A stretch of 64,000 nucleotides of DNA from Shewanella sp. (GTDB lineage Bacteria; Pseudomonadota; Gammaproteobacteria; Enterobacterales; Shewanellaceae). Position 1 is the stretch's first letter. Each line of letters begins with the position of its first letter. The stretch is from NCBI GenBank assembly GCA_028223395.1, contig JAOIUG010000007.1, positions 45 to 64,044 of the forward strand, given 5' to 3'. The translations under genes were made by a program, and so were the position numbers. This document shows, one piece after another, positions 7,390 through 30,196 of this stretch. Under the pieces are notes generated by a model that was given only the letters and a program-made list of their open reading frames with translations, made no database searches and was not told the origin of the DNA.

Positions 7390-8637
7390 ATGTTGTACGC
7401 CTTTCTAATATCGCTAGCAGTACTTGCGTTGTTAAGTATTGTGTTTGAAGAAGTTACCCACCTCAATAAAGCTAAAACAACCTTGTTTTTCGGATGTATC
7501 TCTTGGATTGTCCTTTTTATGGCCGCAGGCAGCCCTAGCCATGAGAAGCTAGTCGAAGAGCGGCTAAACGAAAATTTGCTTGAAATTGCTACTTTGTGGT
7601 TATTTCTCATGTCGACAATGACCTTTGTCGCTTATCTCAATGCAAAAGGCATGATCCAGATACTGGTGCAAAAGTTGTTTCCCCAACGGGTCTCTGTGCG
7701 GATGTTAATGTTGCAAGTTGCGTTATTTTCTTTAGTGCTTTCAGCCATCTGTGACAACGTTACGGCCACTTTGGTGTCTTTAGGGTTACTGACTACTTTT
7801 AAGCTCGATAAACAGATGCGTCAGCGTATGGCCGTGCTGATCATCTTTGCAGTTAATTCTGGTGGAGTTGCGCTCATTACGGGCGATGTCACCACATTAA
7901 TGATTTTTCTTCGTGGCCATGTACACATGTCGGAACTGTTACTGCTATTTATGCCTGCGGCGGCGAGTGTGATGCTGCTTGCAGCGCTGCTGTCAATAAA
8001 GGCTGAAGGAGAAGTCAGTACCACGCCCATTAAGACAAAAGTGCGTTCAGTCGATATTATTATCGCGGCGCTTTTTTTCAGCACTATTGTGATGACCATG
8101 CTCCTCAATATCCTGTTTAACATTCCTCCCGTGCTCATTTTCTTAACAGGTTTGTCTATCATGTTTCTCATCGGCCATACGACTCGAAGCAACAACGAAG
8201 AGTTACAGATTTTGGAGTACATTCGGCAGGTCGAGTATGACACATTGCTATTTTTCTTAGGCATTTTGCTACTTGTTGGCATGCTTAAAGAAATAGGTAC
8301 TCTTGATCTACTCACGCAACTCTACTCGCAGTTTGACCCTAACATATCTAACTTTGCAGCAGGTATAGGCTCAGCGCTGCTTGATAACGTGCCACTAACC
8401 GCCGCATTATTAAAAGCAGAGCCGGTCCTTAACACGCCGCAATGGCTTGGATTAACTTACTCTGTGGGCGTGGGAGGCTCATTACTGGTTATTGGCTCTG
8501 CCGCAGGCATTATTGCCATGAGCAAAGTCAAAGAGTTAACCTTTGTTAGCTATCTTAAATTTGTACCAGCGCTCGCACTTTGTTATAGCGTGGGTTACGG
8601 GCTGACGTTGCTACTGTCTTACCATTTCTATGGTTAG
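7390..8637 (+). CDS. NhaD-like Na+/H+ antiporter (ion transporter superfamily)
   Basis: FEEVTHLNKAK, SAICDNVTATL, ITGDVTTLM, SALLDNVPL and GGSLLVIGSAAG motifs; polytopic membrane protein. Confidence 0.8.
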   Translation: MLYAFLISLAVLALLSIVFEEVTHLNKAKTTLFFGCISWIVLFMAAGSPSHEKLVEERLNENLLEIATLWLFLMSTMTFVAYLNAKGMIQILVQKLFPQRVSVRMLMLQVALFSLVLSAICDNVTATLVSLGLLTTFKLDKQMRQRMAVLIIFAVNSGGVALITGDVTTLMIFLRGHVHMSELLLLFMPAAASVMLLAALLSIKAEGEVSTTPIKTKVRSVDIIIAALFFSTIVMTMLLNILFNIPPVLIFLTGLSIMFLIGHTTRSNNEELQILEYIRQVEYDTLLFFLGILLLVGMLKEIGTLDLLTQLYSQFDPNISNFAAGIGSALLDNVPLTAALLKAEPVLNTPQWLGLTYSVGVGGSLLVIGSAAGIIAMSKVKELTFVSYLKFVPALALCYSVGYGLTLLLSYHFYG

Positions 8638-24013: not shown

Positions 24014-24090
24014 GGCCCCTTAGCTCAGTTGGTTAGAGCATACGACTCATAATCGTCAGGTCCCCAGTTCGAGTCTGGGAGGGGCCACCA
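24014..24090 (+). tRNA. ileX: tRNA-Ile2 (anticodon CAU, lysidine-modified)
   Basis: GGCCCCT acceptor stem pairing with AGGGGCC-ACCA, D arm AGCTCAGTTGGTTAGAGC, anticodon loop CT-CAT-AA, GTTCGA T loop; resembles E. coli ileX, which also lies near rpoD. Confidence 0.93.
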
Positions 24091-24133: not shown

Positions 24134-24417
24134 CGTGTCTGGAGTTCTGTGTAGCAAATATGTAGCAGACTGAGGTTACTTAAATAGAAGTTATTGCGAG
24201 AGGAAGTTTGGAACGATTCTCAGATTAATGTTTGCTAACTATCTCTATACATCACACTTATTCGCCCCGATTTAGCTATTGCTCCTCTCTAATCATAATA
24301 TAGTCGATGATGACTAAGCCTCCTAAAGAGCAATATGATGCGCCTTAGCTGCTTACAGAGAGACCTAGATAGTTGAACACGCTTAACGGTCTAACTGAGT
24401 AGTTACAATCAGTTATA

Positions 24418-24543
24418 CGGTAACGCCGAGTTATGTAGTGAGCAACGCCTCCACCTAACCTAAACCATTGCGCCTTAAACACAAAACCCAATTTGAACTG
24501 AAAATACCAAGCGTTGGGAATCTGCCTTAAACGCTTGTTATGT
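24418..24543 (-). other. Integron attC site of the long Vibrio superintegron-repeat type (~126 bp)
   Basis: Minus strand ACATAAC-AAGCG-TTTAAGGCAGATTCCCAACGC...GCGTTGCTCACTACATAA-CTCGGC-GTTA: R'' and R' cores, L boxes and the CAACGC/GCGTTG inner repeat. Confidence 0.85.
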
Positions 24544-24985
24544 TCGTTACTCTACGAATTTCGCATAAGCCCTTTCATCACATAGTTTTTGCCAAACATC
24601 TTTAGAAATCACTTTGCTTATGTACCCATAATACCCCCAAGTTGTACTTAAGTTTTCTTGCCAACAAGCATCACAACTCAAAGCATGATATGGCACAGTG
24701 CTTTTGAGTATATCTTTACATACATCGTCTAAGGTTCTAGGTTGGTTACAGTAACAGCTAAATTTGGGGCCTCGTTCACGATGAAATAGCTATCCAATTT
24801 TTCGTTGGTAAAGCTTGGGGTAATACTTTTTAAGTCGTTGCTCGGCGGCATCTTGAATGCCCAAATGACCAGTGTTTATAGCATTATCACGAATAACAAA
24901 AAGCCTTTTGGAATCATAATCATATCTACCTTGATTTATGTATACTCGCATATCTGCCATTCTTGAATTCCCCCTGAGAACATAA
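24424..24985 (-). mobile_element. Solitary integron gene cassette
   Basis: Begins G/TTATGTTC (24986-24978); its attC begins with the exact reverse complement GAACATAAC (24545-24537); one ORF fills the space between. Confidence 0.8.
24547..24960 (-). pseudogene. Cassette-borne hypothetical Cys-rich protein (137 codons) with one internal TAG at 24790-24792
   Basis: AGGGGG SD then ATG 24960 (MADMRVYINQGRYDY...RKIG*); the same frame stays open for 80 more codons (LFHRERGPKFSCYCNQ...SCDACWQE...AKFVE) to TAA 24549-24547 next to R''. Confidence 0.8.
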
Positions 24986-25143
24986 CGCCCTAATAATGAC
25001 ATTTAAAGTAAACTAGAAACATTATAAAACAATGACTTACCTTGATTTCAAACAACCCACTCACTATGTTGTAGCGTATATCTAGCACCCTGAAATTTGA
25101 ATAAATATTATGAAATTCTTCAACTATAATTACACAATTTATC

Positions 25144-28100
25144 TTATGGCCACCATATTGAAGCTTCTTTCATCGAATCTCTAAAACACACCAATAGTTG
25201 CTCTCCACCTAATTCATATAGGTAGTCTAGGTTGTTCGTGATAAATGCTAAAGCTTCTTGCCTAGAAGCTTTAGAATGCCTACTTAATAATATAGGTAAA
25301 AGCTTAATTTTATTTTGCTGATTAACAATTGGAAAAAGGTTTGAAAAAATACGACTTTGCCCTTCAACATCTATTACTTCAAATACAGTACTTATCAGCT
25401 TATCAATTAATATATCATCTCCAACATCAGGTCTTTTACTGCTGCTTGATATACTTCCCAGTATCTTAGCTTTAAATTCATAACCTTCCGAATAAGCATA
25501 GTCATCTATAGATTTATTCATAAACTCATATGTTCTCCCATTCAAACTTAAAACTAAGAGCAAAGATTTTTTATATTCTTTTTCCGTTTGAAATTCACTT
25601 AATAGATTAACTGCATTCTCAAAAATTTGATGGTAGTACTTTTTAGGTGCATATCGGTTTATACTTAAATATGCTTGAAGTTTATCGCTAGGAATATCCA
25701 GACTATTAGCGATATCCAATGCTTTTATATATAAATTATCATCATTTGTAATTTCACCCAGTAGTGACAATAATCCACACTTTTGAGAGCCATCAATTTT
25801 GGCTTCGATTTCTATAGTATAACTATCTACATACTTTTCTTTATCTTTAAAGTTGACATCTTTTAGCAAATAGAGTTTACCTTCAAGTTCAGTTTCTAGC
25901 TTAGAAGCTAAATAAAACAACTCTAATTGATCGTCTTCTTTCAAGTATTTTTTTATGCAGTTAAAATATAGCCAAGATAACCTTTTCCAACTTTTCATTT
26001 CATCATTTACGGACTTCAAGATATCAGAATAAGTTTCTTCATCCACTTCCCCCTCTATTAACTCACATAACTGCCAGTAATATTGAACTTTGATATCACT
26101 TCCATAATTAAGTTTTAGAATACTTTTAAGTTCTTCAATATACATTTCTCTTAAAGAGGAGCCTCTGACTTTTATAATAGATATCAATGCAGTAAGCTTT
26201 TGATGAATGAAAGATATTGAACAACATATATTAAAGGCATCCTCGAGTGCACTATTTTTAAAATCCAAATCTTTTGTAGTATTTGCTATAGACGTTAAAA
26301 AAGATATTTGAGAGGATTCATCTTCGATTAACTCTGAAGCCATTAGGGCACGATTAACAGCATCCTTACATACCTTTTCATCATTTAAAAACTCTAAAAG
26401 ATTGGTGATAGCATGAGTTTGGTTATTTCCAGAAGGTAACTTGTTAATAGCATTTAGAATATTATTTTCTATTTCTTCTGACATTCCTATTTCAATTAAT
26501 ATATTCCTAAAAATCTTATATAAATCTATAATCACACCTGATTCATGGTAGTGAACCTCACGCATGGAGGCTTGTATGAGGTATTCATTAAAGTGAGTTG
26601 AAAAAGTAGTAACACCTTCCTCAATTGCTAACTTCATAAATGTGCATAGAAATAAAGCAACTTGAGCTTCATCTTTATTATATGTTTCTGCACTATTAAG
26701 TTTGGATGTTACTCTCAACACTAAATTTGCGTGAATAGTCAAAAGATTAACTAACTCAATAGGAGGTAAAGAATTACTGTTAATAATCACACGTTTAATT
26801 AAGTGCATTCGAGAACGTAAATTTTTTTCTGTTTCAAAATCATGTAAAAAATTAATTCTATAAGTACAAGTGCTGAATGCCTTTGAAGTAGCATCAATCG
26901 TTTCAAACTCATTTTTTATTTTTTTAGCATATACATCTAAATCATCAAGCTTAGAGACCAAATATGTTTCATCTATACCCATTAGGCTTGAGAGTGAAGT
27001 CGATAGACAAGGCTCTTCTTTATATTTATTTAGCTCTTTTATGATCTCACCTATCTTTGATTTGTAGCTCTCGTATTGAACAGTGTTCAATTGTTTCAAG
27101 AATGATTCATATTGTATTTTTTTATTTTTGATATTAGGAGATAGCTCTATCATATTTATTGCCGTTAATGTTTGCTCTGCATCGAGATATTTAGCAACTT
27201 CAATTAATGGTTGAGGCTTATTTTCATTTTGGAGAGTGTCTATTTGCTTTAATGATTGGCCAACTGTCATTAAGTTATGCTTAATGGCATAAGAGCGCAG
27301 TTTTGGAGGTGTATTTCTCCCCATACCATTGATAGAAGATGAAAAAATAGTACATTTCCCTATAATCGAATAATAATCTCCTTTAGTTAAATTGCGTAAA
27401 TCATACTCTTGTTTAGCTTTAGAAATAACTTCTTCAAGTTCTCGAATAAATCCCAAGTGCCTAGATTCACTAGCTAAATGAGCCTTACGCCACCCATTGC
27501 AAATCAATTTTTCAAATTGGCTTAATTTTCCATCATTATCTTTCAAATGCTGGCTGTAGAATTGCAGCAGATAAGAAGAGACATCCTTAGGCATTACTTC
27601 TTCTGAATCAAGTTTTGAAATTGTTTGGCTGCCCCACCTAAGAATTGAATTTTTGGTTTCATCTATTCTTCTATTGTTTTTGAAATATTCTTCACGTAAA
27701 AAAATCCCAAACAATGGATGACTTAATGCATAAGCATTGGATACACCATCACCTATTATGAATCGTTGAATAGGTGCTAACTTGTCTCCTTCTAAATAAA
27801 ACGGCTTATCAAAAATTATTGAAATTATATCTTCTAAATCAGTTATGTACATAGGAGCCATAGCACACGAAAAAACAGCTAACAGTGTGGTTATATCATC
27901 GTCAAATGGAATATCACTATTGTATTTTTTTTGGTCATACATCCATTTTTTAAAATATGCTTCAAAGCCTGGAGCAACTGTAGCTAAGTTTTCATGGGAT
28001 GTGAGCACACCGTTTTGAGCTGAATATAATAAATCTGTAATGTACAAATTAAGAAGAAGAGGCTCACCTTTAGTTAGCCTAAACAGTTGAATTACATAAC

Positions 28101-29295
28101 ACTCAATTAGTGATTTATCTATGGGTTGATTCTCAACATTAATAAGTAGCTCTCTCACTCCATTTAAATTGAGGAGAGGTACTTCCATAGTTTGAACATG
28201 CTTATCTTTCCAACCTAATTGTTCTAACCAATTGGATGAGTCCTTATCACTCAATATACGTGCGCTAGCTATAATTCTTAAGTTAACATTCAAATTATTA
28301 GAGAATAAGTTCTCACTAACTTCCCAACCTGTAGCTTCATCTAAACCATCGATTACTATTAAAACTTTCTCTTCTGACTTTTCTAATAGCTCAAAATACT
28401 CAGCAATCTTTTCTTTGTAATACTCAACAGGATCATACTCACTTGCTACAAGTGTAACTTTAAGAACTCCAGCCAACTGAACAGCTAAAGATTCAAAGAA
28501 CATTATCGGTTTATTAGTTTCATAGCGGAGACTAATTGGCATAAAACATATAGGCCAATCTAAAGAGATATTCTCTAACCAATGGAGCAACAGAGCCGTC
28601 TTCCCTCTACCAGCCGGAGACGTTATAAGAAAGTTTTTAGGTGAATTATCATCTATAAGCCAATTATTAAGTGAGTCAATTTCGGTTTTACGCCCACCAA
28701 AAAAAACATTTTTAGCTGAATTGTCTAGATAAGAATCGCGAAACCTTTTAATCCTCATTTTATAATCGCTTGGAACTCTTCTTGTTATGATGTGGATACG
28801 ATCAAATTGTTCAAGGAAATATTCATAAACGATGTTTAAATTCTCGTCATCTAAGGAGTTTATTTTTTTTATTAGGTCTCTATAATCCCAGATGTCGCTT
28901 TTCGTATCGATGTAGTGATTAATATCCCCATATTTTTTATCTTTATGGTGCGACTTTCTAACAATATTGAATATTATTAATCTGTCGTATTCTTTATATA
29001 ATTCTTTTTCAATGAATTTTTGTACGGTATGTTTAGTTTTATTAGGTGTTTTAGTTGAGGTTATTTGAATAGCTATACGATTTATAGAATCACCTAGATC
29101 AATCGAGGCTGAATTAGCCTGCTTAAAATTAGTATTTACTAATTTATAGCCGTAAACAATATTAAAAAGGCGACAATAAAAATCTTCCGCATATATGTTT
29201 ATGTCTGTTAAATTCAAAGTAGCCTTGATTTCTATCTTTGATCTCAGCTCTCCTAATTTATCTGTTATGTAGTCAATTTGTTTAGAGCGCTTCAT
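25144..29295 (-). CDS. SMEK-like nuclease + STAND (NACHT-like) NTPase + C-terminal helical/TPR-like repeats; candidate NLR/Avs-like defence protein, 1383 aa
   Basis: N-terminal DINIYAEDF..YGYKLVNTN..IDLGD..IAIQITS; FGGR pre-Walker motif, Walker A SPAGRGKT, Walker B IVIDGLDEA, GEPL (GxP), SHPLFGIFL winged-helix motif; helical C-terminal half ending WWP. Confidence 0.8.
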   Translation of the reverse strand: MKRSKQIDYITDKLGELRSKIEIKATLNLTDINIYAEDFYCRLFNIVYGYKLVNTNFKQANSASIDLGDSINRIAIQITSTKTPNKTKHTVQKFIEKELYKEYDRLIIFNIVRKSHHKDKKYGDINHYIDTKSDIWDYRDLIKKINSLDDENLNIVYEYFLEQFDRIHIITRRVPSDYKMRIKRFRDSYLDNSAKNVFFGGRKTEIDSLNNWLIDDNSPKNFLITSPAGRGKTALLLHWLENISLDWPICFMPISLRYETNKPIMFFESLAVQLAGVLKVTLVASEYDPVEYYKEKIAEYFELLEKSEEKVLIVIDGLDEATGWEVSENLFSNNLNVNLRIIASARILSDKDSSNWLEQLGWKDKHVQTMEVPLLNLNGVRELLINVENQPIDKSLIECYVIQLFRLTKGEPLLLNLYITDLLYSAQNGVLTSHENLATVAPGFEAYFKKWMYDQKKYNSDIPFDDDITTLLAVFSCAMAPMYITDLEDIISIIFDKPFYLEGDKLAPIQRFIIGDGVSNAYALSHPLFGIFLREEYFKNNRRIDETKNSILRWGSQTISKLDSEEVMPKDVSSYLLQFYSQHLKDNDGKLSQFEKLICNGWRKAHLASESRHLGFIRELEEVISKAKQEYDLRNLTKGDYYSIIGKCTIFSSSINGMGRNTPPKLRSYAIKHNLMTVGQSLKQIDTLQNENKPQPLIEVAKYLDAEQTLTAINMIELSPNIKNKKIQYESFLKQLNTVQYESYKSKIGEIIKELNKYKEEPCLSTSLSSLMGIDETYLVSKLDDLDVYAKKIKNEFETIDATSKAFSTCTYRINFLHDFETEKNLRSRMHLIKRVIINSNSLPPIELVNLLTIHANLVLRVTSKLNSAETYNKDEAQVALFLCTFMKLAIEEGVTTFSTHFNEYLIQASMREVHYHESGVIIDLYKIFRNILIEIGMSEEIENNILNAINKLPSGNNQTHAITNLLEFLNDEKVCKDAVNRALMASELIEDESSQISFLTSIANTTKDLDFKNSALEDAFNICCSISFIHQKLTALISIIKVRGSSLREMYIEELKSILKLNYGSDIKVQYYWQLCELIEGEVDEETYSDILKSVNDEMKSWKRLSWLYFNCIKKYLKEDDQLELFYLASKLETELEGKLYLLKDVNFKDKEKYVDSYTIEIEAKIDGSQKCGLLSLLGEITNDDNLYIKALDIANSLDIPSDKLQAYLSINRYAPKKYYHQIFENAVNLLSEFQTEKEYKKSLLLVLSLNGRTYEFMNKSIDDYAYSEGYEFKAKILGSISSSSKRPDVGDDILIDKLISTVFEVIDVEGQSRIFSNLFPIVNQQNKIKLLPILLSRHSKASRQEALAFITNNLDYLYELGGEQLLVCFRDSMKEASIWWP

Positions 29296-29909
29296 TGTCG
29301 TTTTGTAATTTCATTAATTTATATTTATACTACAGGTAAAACAGCAATAATTCAATGCGTTACGTCGTAATGTTGAGCTCTACTAACATGCGATTTATTT
29401 GTCCTAAAAATCACATTTAAAAATTTATTACAGTTATTTATAGAACTCCAAGTAAAAGCACTTTAGTCATTCTGGCTAGAGATTAAATCAAGGGACAAAA
29501 AACAGGTTTACAGGATGTTTGTTGCTTTTGAAGCTTAAGAAAGAAGCTTTGTTATGGTAGATGTTACTGCAATTAAAGCATGAATTTAAAACATTAGACA
29601 TTACTTCTAGCCGCCTAATTAAACCGCTTATGCTTTTTGTACCCTCCATTGATAAAGTCTTGTAAAAATCGCTTGTCCTGCGAACCACAGCCCCTTAATT
29701 TTAGTGGTAAGCTCACCATCATAGTAACTCGGTAAGCATTCACCAGTTTGTTCATCAACGTTAAGCTCATAATGCAATTTGATAGGTCTATCTTTTAGGT
29801 TAATTGAAACAAAGCATATAGCCAGCTATTACTAATCAGTAACATAGCAACATTCCTGTGGGCAGGCAATGATGAGCCTTACTTAAAGCGGGAACTTGAG
29901 AAACACTAG

Positions 29910-30196
29910 GGCTGTTGATCTTTCACGGTTATTTTTTCCGCAGTTTATTGGCTCTTTTGGCAAGGTGGAAGCTATGCCGTTTCGTTATTCTCCACAAGTA
30001 GTCTACAACACAGTCAAAATAGCCAAGAAACGCGGCCCTTTGGGTTCGTTTCAATTCTTTTATTATTTTATTCTTTTATTCTTTTATGACCAGAGTGCGT
30101 GACGCACTTTTCACTTAGCCAGCCAAGCTCACCCATTAGCCTTGCACTAAAACAATTGAATTCGAACAAAAACTAAGCTCCAAAGTTCAACAGCCC
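29910..30196. mobile_element. MITE-like repeat, copy 2 (complete, ~290 bp)
   Basis: Terminal inverted repeats GGCTGTTGATCTTT / AAAGTTCAACAGCC, flanked by CTAG (29906-29909 and 30197-30200); no transposase; second copy at 8638-8880. Confidence 0.88.

What the first reader, a model, noticed from the sequence alone, without database searches (positions are those of the whole stretch)
25144..29295. Stand-alone SMEK-nuclease/STAND/helical-repeat protein: candidate single-gene NLR-like (Avs-like) anti-phage system
Seen: an intact, very AT-rich 1383-aa ORF in a tRNA-linked islet, in three parts. (1) An N-terminal ~165 aa with E..IDLGD-x5-AIQITS. (2) A P-loop module with FGGR, SPAGRGKT, hhhhDGLDE, GxP and S-H-x2-F motifs in STAND order. 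(3) A long helical C-terminal half with recurring 'AL..A..I' units, ending WWP. Established: effector-STAND-sensor is the layout of bacterial Avs/NACHT immune receptors, which oligomerise on a phage protein and activate the N-terminal effector; SMEK domains are PD-(D/E)xK-like modules found in conflict systems. Inference: this is a phage-sensing receptor with a DNase effector. I do not recognise this SMEK + STAND + WWP-ending combination as a named, validated system, so it may be a new subtype.
Basis: partly seen in the sequence, partly recalled or inferred. Interest (0 to 1): 0.82.

Follow-up and report, generated by a model that had tools for sequence, protein, structure and literature searches.

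The report
Avs-type receptor with SMEK nuclease
An intact gene beside a tRNA and the stump of a phage-type replication gene joins an Mrr-like SMEK domain, a STAND ATPase and a predicted helical solenoid, and is likely a one-gene bacterial immune receptor that would sense a phage protein and cut DNA: a known design, in a large family that matches none of the named Avs types that could be tested.

Summary
The ORF is real and intact (1383 aa, 31.5% GC; four full-length relatives at 37-77%). Residues 1-165 are a SMEK domain, homologous to the solved Mrr domain of Kordia Mrr-APAZ. Residues 178-545 are a STAND NTPase with the NACHT-type DGLDE motif. The rest is a predicted all-helical solenoid.

The NTPase belongs to a large family (1,695 clusters at 50% identity, mostly ending WWP) whose N-termini are swapped among SMEK, TIR, DUF4062, trypsin, CHAT, PNP and EAD domains. 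The gene lies downstream of a P2-type gpA stump at a tRNA hotspot; related genomes carry other defence genes in the same slot. A Cellvibrio orthologue also sits between a tRNA and gpA.

Most likely an Avs/NLR-type abortive-infection receptor with a DNase effector; trigger and activity are untested. It fails the Avs1-5 profile tests. Avs11-24 and the 90 clusters of Lee et al. 2026 could not be tested. New here: a SMEK effector on a STAND, a QxT site in place of QxK, and a conserved 'NNRTH' sensor patch shared across separate NTPase lineages. Verdict: new variant of a known kind.

The parts
25144..29295 (-). Whole gene, 1383 aa (P0001): SMEK - STAND NTPase - helical solenoid ending WWP
28801..29295 (-). 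SMEK (Mrr-like, restriction-fold) effector domain, aa 1-165; E37, D66, Q77, T79 and K86 invariant in 12 of 12 SMEK sequences aligned
   Evidence: Pfam SMEK_N E 1.4e-42; NF033859; PDB 26bh Mrr domain E 7.8e-13; secondary structure of the model
28171..28764 (-). STAND nucleotide-binding domain, about aa 178-375: FGGR, Walker A K232, Walker B DGLDE 316-320, SAR 344-346
   Evidence: Pfam NPHP3_N 27 bits, cut-off 24.8; boundaries estimated from the model
27226..28170 (-). STAND helical domain (GEP 410), winged helix (SHPLF 525) and helical arm, about aa 376-690
   Evidence: boundaries approximate
25144..27225 (-). Predicted alpha-solenoid (HEAT/TPR-like) sensor, aa 691-1383, ending WWP; the fastest-diverging part
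26317..26436 (-). Conserved sensor patch PSGNN(Q/R)TH-x28-LIEDE, aa 954-993; candidate trigger-contact site
29631..29822 (-). Last 64 codons of a P2-type replication gene gpA (remnant), upstream of and co-directional with the receptor gene
   Evidence: 92% amino-acid identity to the C-terminus of the Phage_GPA protein of the integrase+gpA element at the same tRNA in G066/L109
29404..29809 (.). Element DNA shared with L109 (88% over 412 bp) and partly with L096: gpA end plus the spacer in front of the cargo slot
24014..24090 (+). tRNA(CAT) after rpoD, an integration hotspot in the genus; ARAGORN calls it Met, the position and sequence recall ileX-type tRNA-Ile2 (recalled, not tested)

Best explanation
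The gene joins an Mrr-like SMEK domain, a STAND NTPase and a predicted helical solenoid, and most likely encodes a one-protein Avs/NLR-type anti-phage receptor that would bind a conserved phage protein, oligomerise and cut DNA. Shown: the three modules, intact NTPase motifs, purifying selection, effector swapping across the family, and the position downstream of a gpA remnant at a tRNA hotspot. Inferred from Avs3, Avs4 and Avs7-21: the solenoid folds back and holds the NTPase off; binding one phage protein monomer, probably through the NNRTH/IEDE patch, releases it; ATP-bound NTPases assemble, probably as a tetramer; the clustered SMEK domains then degrade DNA non-specifically and abort infection. 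Inferred active site: E37, D66 and Q77, with K86 on the following helix standing in for the lysine of the usual QxK motif. Inferred history: the gene came as cargo of an integrase+gpA element that has since decayed.
For: Effector: SMEK_N E 1e-42; homology to the solved Mrr domain of Kordia Mrr-APAZ, with E, D, Q and K aligned. That complex is reported to have weak collateral DNase activity (PMC12205087 passage). SMEK is also a Lamassu LmuA effector (PMC12663957 passage). NTPase: best fold matches are Avs3, Apaf-1, MalT, PH0952 (6mfv; name recalled), NRC2 and Avs4. Family: 32 of 53 N-termini scanned had a Pfam hit: trypsin 13, DUF4062 8, CHAT 2, EAD 2, and one each of TIR, Mrr, SMEK, HetE-N, NNH2, zinc ribbon and a second NTPase, several below the curated cut-off. 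PNP and caspase-like domains occur in others. SMEK member P0039 groups at 100/100 with three members that carry a different QxK nuclease-like N-terminus. Monophyly of the SMEK-bearing members is rejected (p-AU 6e-54). The sensor diverges faster than the NTPase (65/64/57/27% against 93/90/72/52%). Context: gpA stump at 92% identity to an element whose cargo is PDC-M49A; a type IIG RM gene fills the slot in G010. The Cellvibrio orthologue lies between tRNA-Ala and gpA. The gpA flank is a described defence hotspot (PMC9122126 passage). 5 of 18 family loci have a specific PADLOC defence hit within 5 kb, one a complete Zorya II.
Against: No experiment, no trigger and no expression data. The SMEK site reads QxT, whereas most nuclease mutants that abolished Avs toxicity in PMC13581612 were QxK or ExK, and the one tested SMEK complex is described as weak. 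13 of 18 family loci had no specific defence neighbour, and no control set was run. 21 of 53 N-termini had no Pfam hit, and 23 of 76 loci have a short or missing N-terminus, so part of the family may not be self-contained. The top whole-model structural matches by VIA include non-immune STANDs (MalT Z 16.0), tied with the NLRs. The gpA orientation differs between the window (co-directional) and Cellvibrio (tail to tail). Only 4 of 19 related tRNA loci showed defence-type cargo among 58 hand-picked ORFs.
Confidence: 0.7

Rival explanations
1. It is a defence receptor with the same output but a different input: it guards a host protein, or senses nucleic acid or a competing mobile element, rather than binding a phage protein directly.
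For: bNACHT25 senses chaperone perturbation, and Avs22-24 and bNACHT20 had no phage activator in the screen (PMC13581612 sections 11 and 13). The sensor model resembles generic HEAT and Pumilio-type solenoids.
Against: At least 12 of 14 investigated Avs families bind phage proteins through shape-complementary interfaces. The sensor varies faster than the NTPase, as expected of a surface chasing a viral ligand.
Confidence: 0.14
2. It is a phage-sensing STAND whose SMEK domain is a weak or dead nuclease, working by DNA binding or by recruiting a partner.
For: QxT in place of QxK. Only weak collateral activity is reported for SMEK-APAZ. Some family members carry adaptors (EAD, trypco-linked proteases) instead of enzymes.
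Against: E37, D66, Q77 and K86 are invariant in 12 of 12 SMEK sequences, across STAND and LmuA-like fusions. The gene stands alone, with no partner ORF. SMEK replaces a QxK nuclease-like domain within one clade.
Confidence: 0.1
3. It is not a defence gene: either a signalling or regulatory STAND, or an addiction module of the decayed element.
For: MalT is among the top structural matches. Defence and non-defence STAND clades are interspersed. One relative carries an HTH.
Against: No DNA-binding output domain and no antitoxin neighbour. The N-terminal domains are the lethal-effector set. The slot holds RM and PDC-M49 genes in relatives. The gene stayed intact while the element decayed.
Confidence: 0.06

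Closest known systems
Avs3 / Avs4 (AVAST; PDB 8dgc, 8dgf)
   Same: Nuclease - STAND - helical sensor layout; Avs3 is the top Foldseek match of residues 1-700 (E 1.4e-11) and Avs4 is also listed.
   Different: 12-13% identity and TM-score 0.23-0.28; no Avs profile matches P0001; the STAND profile finds no Avs chain in PDB sequences; SMEK effector; 1383 aa against about 1530-2030 resolved residues.
Avs7-24 and the 90 defence STAND sensor clusters (Lee et al. 2026, PMC13581612)
   Same: Single-gene effector-STAND-TPR-like receptors, mostly with QxK/ExK nuclease effectors; this survey very probably samples the same NTPase clade (inference from family size).
   Different: 'SMEK', 'WWP' and the family motifs do not occur in the 7 readable supplements. 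The family was not found in 400 other genomes of this order, where most tested systems came from. Sequence tables could not be read, so identity with Avs11-24 is untested.
Bacterial NACHT proteins (Kibby et al., bioRxiv 10.1101/2022.07.19.500537), e.g. bNACHT25 with an Mrr-like effector
   Same: D[GAS]hDE Walker B (DGLDE); swapped N-terminal effectors; variable sensor.
   Different: Pfam NACHT stays below cut-off (15.6 against 26.7 bits) while NPHP3_N just passes; 'SMEK' has 0 occurrences in that main text; clade placement not tested.
SMEK-APAZ / short pAgo of Kordia jejudonensis (PDB 26bh) and SMEK-type Lamassu LmuA
   Same: Homologous effector domain with the same IDL.D..QITST..K pattern.
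   Different: A different sensor (guide RNA or SMC complex); here SMEK is fused to a STAND.
P2/P4 defence hotspots (PMC9122126, PMC13586616)
   Same: Defence cargo next to gpA, including NLR-like and Avs genes.
   Different: The related element in G066 is about 8 kb (integrase + gpA), with no portal-sized structural block among the ORFs scanned; here only a gpA stump remains.

Membership tests
STAND NTPase superfamily | P-loop NBD followed by a GxP helical domain and a winged helix | tested here: met
   motifs; model matches 6mfv Z 16.7 (rmsd 6.0, 363 aligned), MalT Z 16.0, NRC2 Z 15.4; Apaf-1 and Avs3 by Foldseek
NACHT module (bNACHT) | D[GAS]hDE Walker B motif | tested here: met
   DGLDE 316-320; 219 of 226 unique relatives over 1000 aa; criterion from the passage
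NACHT module (bNACHT) | Pfam NACHT score above cut-off, or placement in a bNACHT clade | tested here: inconclusive
   NACHT 15.6 < 26.7 bits; NPHP3_N 27 > 24.8; no reference bNACHT sequences available for a tree
SMEK domain | PF21941 and NF033859 above cut-off | tested here: met
   145 against 27 bits; 104 against 30 bits
Mrr-like PD-(D/E/Q)xK nuclease | Restriction fold with E...D...Q | tested here: met
   26bh homology; helix-three-strand-helix-strand core in the model; invariant E37, D66, Q77
Mrr-like PD-(D/E/Q)xK nuclease | Lysine two residues after Q | tested here: not met
   T79 at that place; K86 invariant instead; same in the Kordia domain
Mrr-like PD-(D/E/Q)xK nuclease | DNase activity | not testable with these tools
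   needs an assay
Avs1-Avs5 | Full-length match to type profiles in PADLOC and NCBIfam | tested here: not met
   No Avs hit for P0001. Among 30 relatives only partial Avs1b hits: protease domains, and one 31-bit stretch in the NTPase of P0041; 25-46 bits against a cut-off of 1500 in NCBIfam
Avs with solved sensors (Avs3, Avs4, Avs5, possibly Avs7) | Same sensor fold | tested here: inconclusive
   The sensor model matches only generic solenoids, best Z 12.8 (rmsd 10.8, 318 aligned), below the level meaningful for helical repeats
Avs7, Avs8, Avs10-24 and the 90 sensor clusters of PMC13581612 | Sensor structural cluster and NTPase clade as in its Supplementary Tables 1-6 | not testable with these tools
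   MOESM1, 3 and 4 too large to read; readable files hold no matching motifs or accessions
Avs (functional definition) | Phage-protein-triggered oligomerisation and protection | not testable with these tools
   needs experiments

The most novel reading that the evidence does not exclude
The WWP-ending STANDs are an untested Avs family of more than 1,600 clusters. Their NNRTH-patch subtype is a sensor module that has moved between NTPase lineages and effectors and recognises a phage component for which no Avs sensor is yet known. This protein is the first STAND-activated SMEK nuclease, with a relocated catalytic lysine.
Probability: 0.3. Interest if true: 0.7.

Novelty: new variant of a known kind. 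Interest (0 to 1): 0.46.

Why it matters
The design is established (Avs1-24), so the gene does not change the concept. It would add a large receptor family that appears rare in the enterobacterial order where most Avs testing was done. It offers a short conserved sensor patch that makes the trigger question directly testable by a phage gene library screen and point mutants. It also gives a clean setting to settle whether SMEK domains, known from Argonaute and Lamassu systems, are strong nucleases despite lacking the QxK lysine.

Tried and rejected
Co-folding four copies of the SMEK domain gave no verdict (score 0.00); it is not used as evidence.

The full-length family profile against PDB returned only compositional repeat matches (CagY, Pumilio, designed repeats), rejected as artefacts. 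The STAND-only profile gave nothing better than E 0.03. Sensor fold searches gave no specific match.

The search for more NNRTH sensors with alignment A8 among longer proteins returned only P0001-P0004, a weak negative because it also missed known members.

No earlier findings of this scan. No Rfam match besides the tRNA. No tRNA 3' duplicate in the window and no intact gpA in the 53%-complete genome, so the element's far end is lost or unassembled. Promoter scan at chance level. Repeat scan of the islet showed only chance pairs apart from the 29909/30196 inverted repeat. The break in the Cellvibrio copy falls on NN bases and is treated as an assembly gap. The attC-like repeat did not fold significantly (z -1.6). 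The first IQ-TREE run on 124 rows timed out and was redone with FastTree and with IQ-TREE on 32 chosen rows. SMEK and the QxK-type N-termini of L019 and L055 show no detectable similarity, so they are treated as replacements.

Literature searches for a SMEK-STAND system: 'SMEK, STAND, phage' gave 1 unrelated paper; 'SMEK, nuclease, phage, defense' gave 5, on Argonaute, Lamassu and papain folds. The library lacks most subscription papers.
Full report
Observation. The ORF at 25144-29295 (-) encodes 1383 aa without a break. It is 31.5% GC against 44-47% for four neighbouring core genes. It lies between rpoD-tRNA(CAT) and a cstA-like transporter gene (name recalled). All named NTPase motifs and IDLGD-x5-AIQITS are present; 'E..IDLGD' and the 'AL..A..I' repeat are only approximate. 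Four full-length relatives exist at 77, 74, 64 and 37% identity. Against the 63%-identical Cellvibrio copy, dN is below dS in every domain (dS saturated or nearly so). The gene is patchy: only the own genome had it among 61 relatives, and the NTPase profile found 0 of 400 other genomes of the order at E 1e-20 (one genome per species, so not proof of absence).

Effector. Residues 9-146 match Pfam SMEK_N (E 1.4e-42) and NF033859. The only PDB sequence hit is 26bh, the Mrr domain of Kordia jejudonensis Mrr-APAZ (E 7.8e-13). The only strong PADLOC hit is the N-terminus of the Argonaute-associated REase. In 12 SMEK sequences E37, D66, Q77, T79 and K86 are invariant. The site therefore reads QxT, not the QxK or ExK mutated in most tested Avs effectors. 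I infer that K86 on the next helix supplies the lysine; this was not checked in 3D. The Kordia complex has weak collateral DNase activity (PMC12205087, passage; the primary paper was not read). SMEK is also a short-Lamassu effector (PMC12663957, passage).

NTPase and sensor. The model of residues 1-700 (pLDDT 85.5) matches Avs3, Apaf-1, MalT, 6mfv and Avs4 by Foldseek at 12-16% identity. VIA gives 6mfv Z 16.7, MalT 16.0 and NRC2 15.4. DGLDE is the NACHT-type Walker B (bioRxiv 10.1101/2022.07.19.500537, passage), though Pfam NACHT stays below cut-off. Residues 641-1383 model as 40 helices with no strand (pLDDT 86.2) and match only generic solenoids. Identity to the four relatives falls from 93/90/72/52% in the NBD to 65/64/57/27% in the sensor.

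Family. The NTPase region retrieves 61 proteins, 234 genomic stretches (76 loci kept) and 1,695 clusters of 50% identity at E 1e-30. Members come from Proteobacteria, Chloroflexota, Actinomycetota, Nitrospirota, Bacteroidota and others. 115 of 226 unique relatives over 1000 aa end in WWP and 165 in a close variant. Of 53 N-termini scanned, 32 had Pfam hits (trypsin 13, DUF4062 8, CHAT 2, EAD 2, TIR, Mrr, SMEK and others; several below cut-off) and 21 had none; 23 of the 76 loci were not scanned because the N-terminus was short or cut. Among 121 adjacent ORFs, trypco genes precede three trypsin members, integrases flank two members, and further STANDs flank five. SMEK-bearing members fall in three places on the NTPase tree, and their monophyly is rejected. 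One of them groups at 100/100 with members whose N-terminus has a GPGDDL..EAQxK motif (Cap4-like by recall; weak PDC-M54A hit). This is effector swapping of the Avs type.

Sensor patch. A motif P[ST][GA]NN[RQI]TH followed about 28 residues later by [LR]I[ED]D[ED] occurs in 13 of 279 sequences, about 390-430 aa from the C-terminus in the full-length ones; the second piece of the Cellvibrio gene also has it. A profile from the six P0001-like proteins ranks six of the other seven carriers next, ahead of all non-carriers; the seventh ranks lower. The carriers were picked by the motif, so this test is partly circular. The Burkholderiales-type carriers rank only 114-199 of 279 by NTPase similarity. 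The label needs four changes on the tree and monophyly is rejected (p-AU 0.0004; 32 rows that I chose after seeing the FastTree; composition is uneven). Either sensors were exchanged or the patch was lost repeatedly. A shared ligand is my inference.

Context. In the 3 of 19 related genomes where cstA lay within the stretch fetched, it is 1.2-2.0 kb from the tRNA, against 6.2 kb here. Three others have integrases in elements with tRNA 3' repeats. Window 29631-29822 is the end of a gpA gene, 92% identical to that of an integrase+gpA element at the same tRNA in G066, whose downstream cargo is PDC-M49A. G010 shares the spacer DNA and carries a type IIG RM gene there. 4 of 19 loci had defence-type hits among 58 hand-picked ORFs. 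The Cellvibrio orthologue lies between tRNA-Ala and a gpA gene, in the opposite orientation. The gpA flank is a known defence hotspot of P2-like phages (PMC9122126 and PMC13586616, passages). For 18 family loci (6 of 24 dropped for the size limit), 5 had a specific PADLOC hit within 5 kb, including a complete Zorya II; 3 had generic hits that I discount, and 10 had none. No null set was run.

Mechanism. Most likely (0.7) an autoinhibited receptor that binds a phage protein with its solenoid, oligomerises through the NTPase and turns on SMEK DNase to abort infection. The modules, motifs, selection, swapping and context are shown. Sensing, oligomer state, catalysis and protection are inferred from Avs precedent (PMC13581612: abstract, sections 5, 11, 12, 13, 15, 18, 42, 52, first part of 43, passages, first part of supplement 3, term searches in 7 supplements). 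Rivals: indirect or non-protein sensing (0.14), weak or dead nuclease (0.10), non-defence role (0.06).

Comparison and novelty. It works like an Avs. It is not Avs1-5 by profile. Avs6 and Avs9 are SAMD9-like families (PMC12680541, passages); SAMD9 appears only low in the fold list. Whether it falls in Avs11-24 or in one of the 90 sensor clusters cannot be decided, because the files holding the sequence tables were too large to read. A family this large was probably sampled there. Its absence from the 400 genomes of this order makes identity with the enterobacterial test cases less likely; the Moraxella, Myxococcus, Halomonas, Alloalcanivorax, Acinetobacter and Cereibacter cases remain open. 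No paper describing a SMEK-STAND system turned up. Verdict: new variant of a known kind, interest 0.46.

Noticed in passing
window 24415-24984 (-): Integron-like gene cassette between the tRNA and the receptor: GTTATGT, a 137-codon ORF with one internal TAG (70% identical to an intact ORF in G068/L111), then an approximately 125-bp attC/VCR-like repeat starting ACATAAC. The repeat has a second copy in this genome and scattered copies across the genus. The attC label is recalled; the fold was not significant.
   Followed up: partly
window 29909-30196: About 290-bp element with 29-bp imperfect inverted ends (GGGCTGTTGA...TCAACAGCCC) flanked by CTAG, MITE-like. It sits where the gpA remnant breaks off; a similar end lies at 8637.
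   Followed up: partly
window about 25030-25045 and L004 about 1290-1304: The same short motif TAAGTCRTTGWTT lies on the tRNA side of the gene in both the window and the Cellvibrio locus; possibly an integrase arm site.
   Followed up: no
L109:6175-14640 (G066): About 8-kb element of integrase + Phage_GPA + PDC-M49A cargo with a 47-bp tRNA repeat and no evident structural genes: a possible gpA-type satellite or integrative element.
   Followed up: partly
L002:1030-1995 and L003:1489-2487: SMEK domains fused to a short C-terminal domain ending in a C-x-V-F-P or C-D-V-G motif, resembling SMEK-type Lamassu LmuA (recalled).
   Followed up: no
L032, L034, L039 (Chloroflexota): Trypsin-bearing family members are followed directly by an nSTAND1-WD40 gene; L014 is flanked by STAND-like genes on both sides.
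   Followed up: no
L095 (G004): Nested islands at the same tRNA with PADLOC hits to NsnA, PDC-S15, RmrA/RmrT and a DRT-type polymerase model.
   Followed up: no
L005, L007, L008, L010, L012 and others: Many family members have almost no N-terminus before the NTPase; several have a small co-directional upstream ORF without a Pfam hit, possibly a split effector.
   Followed up: no
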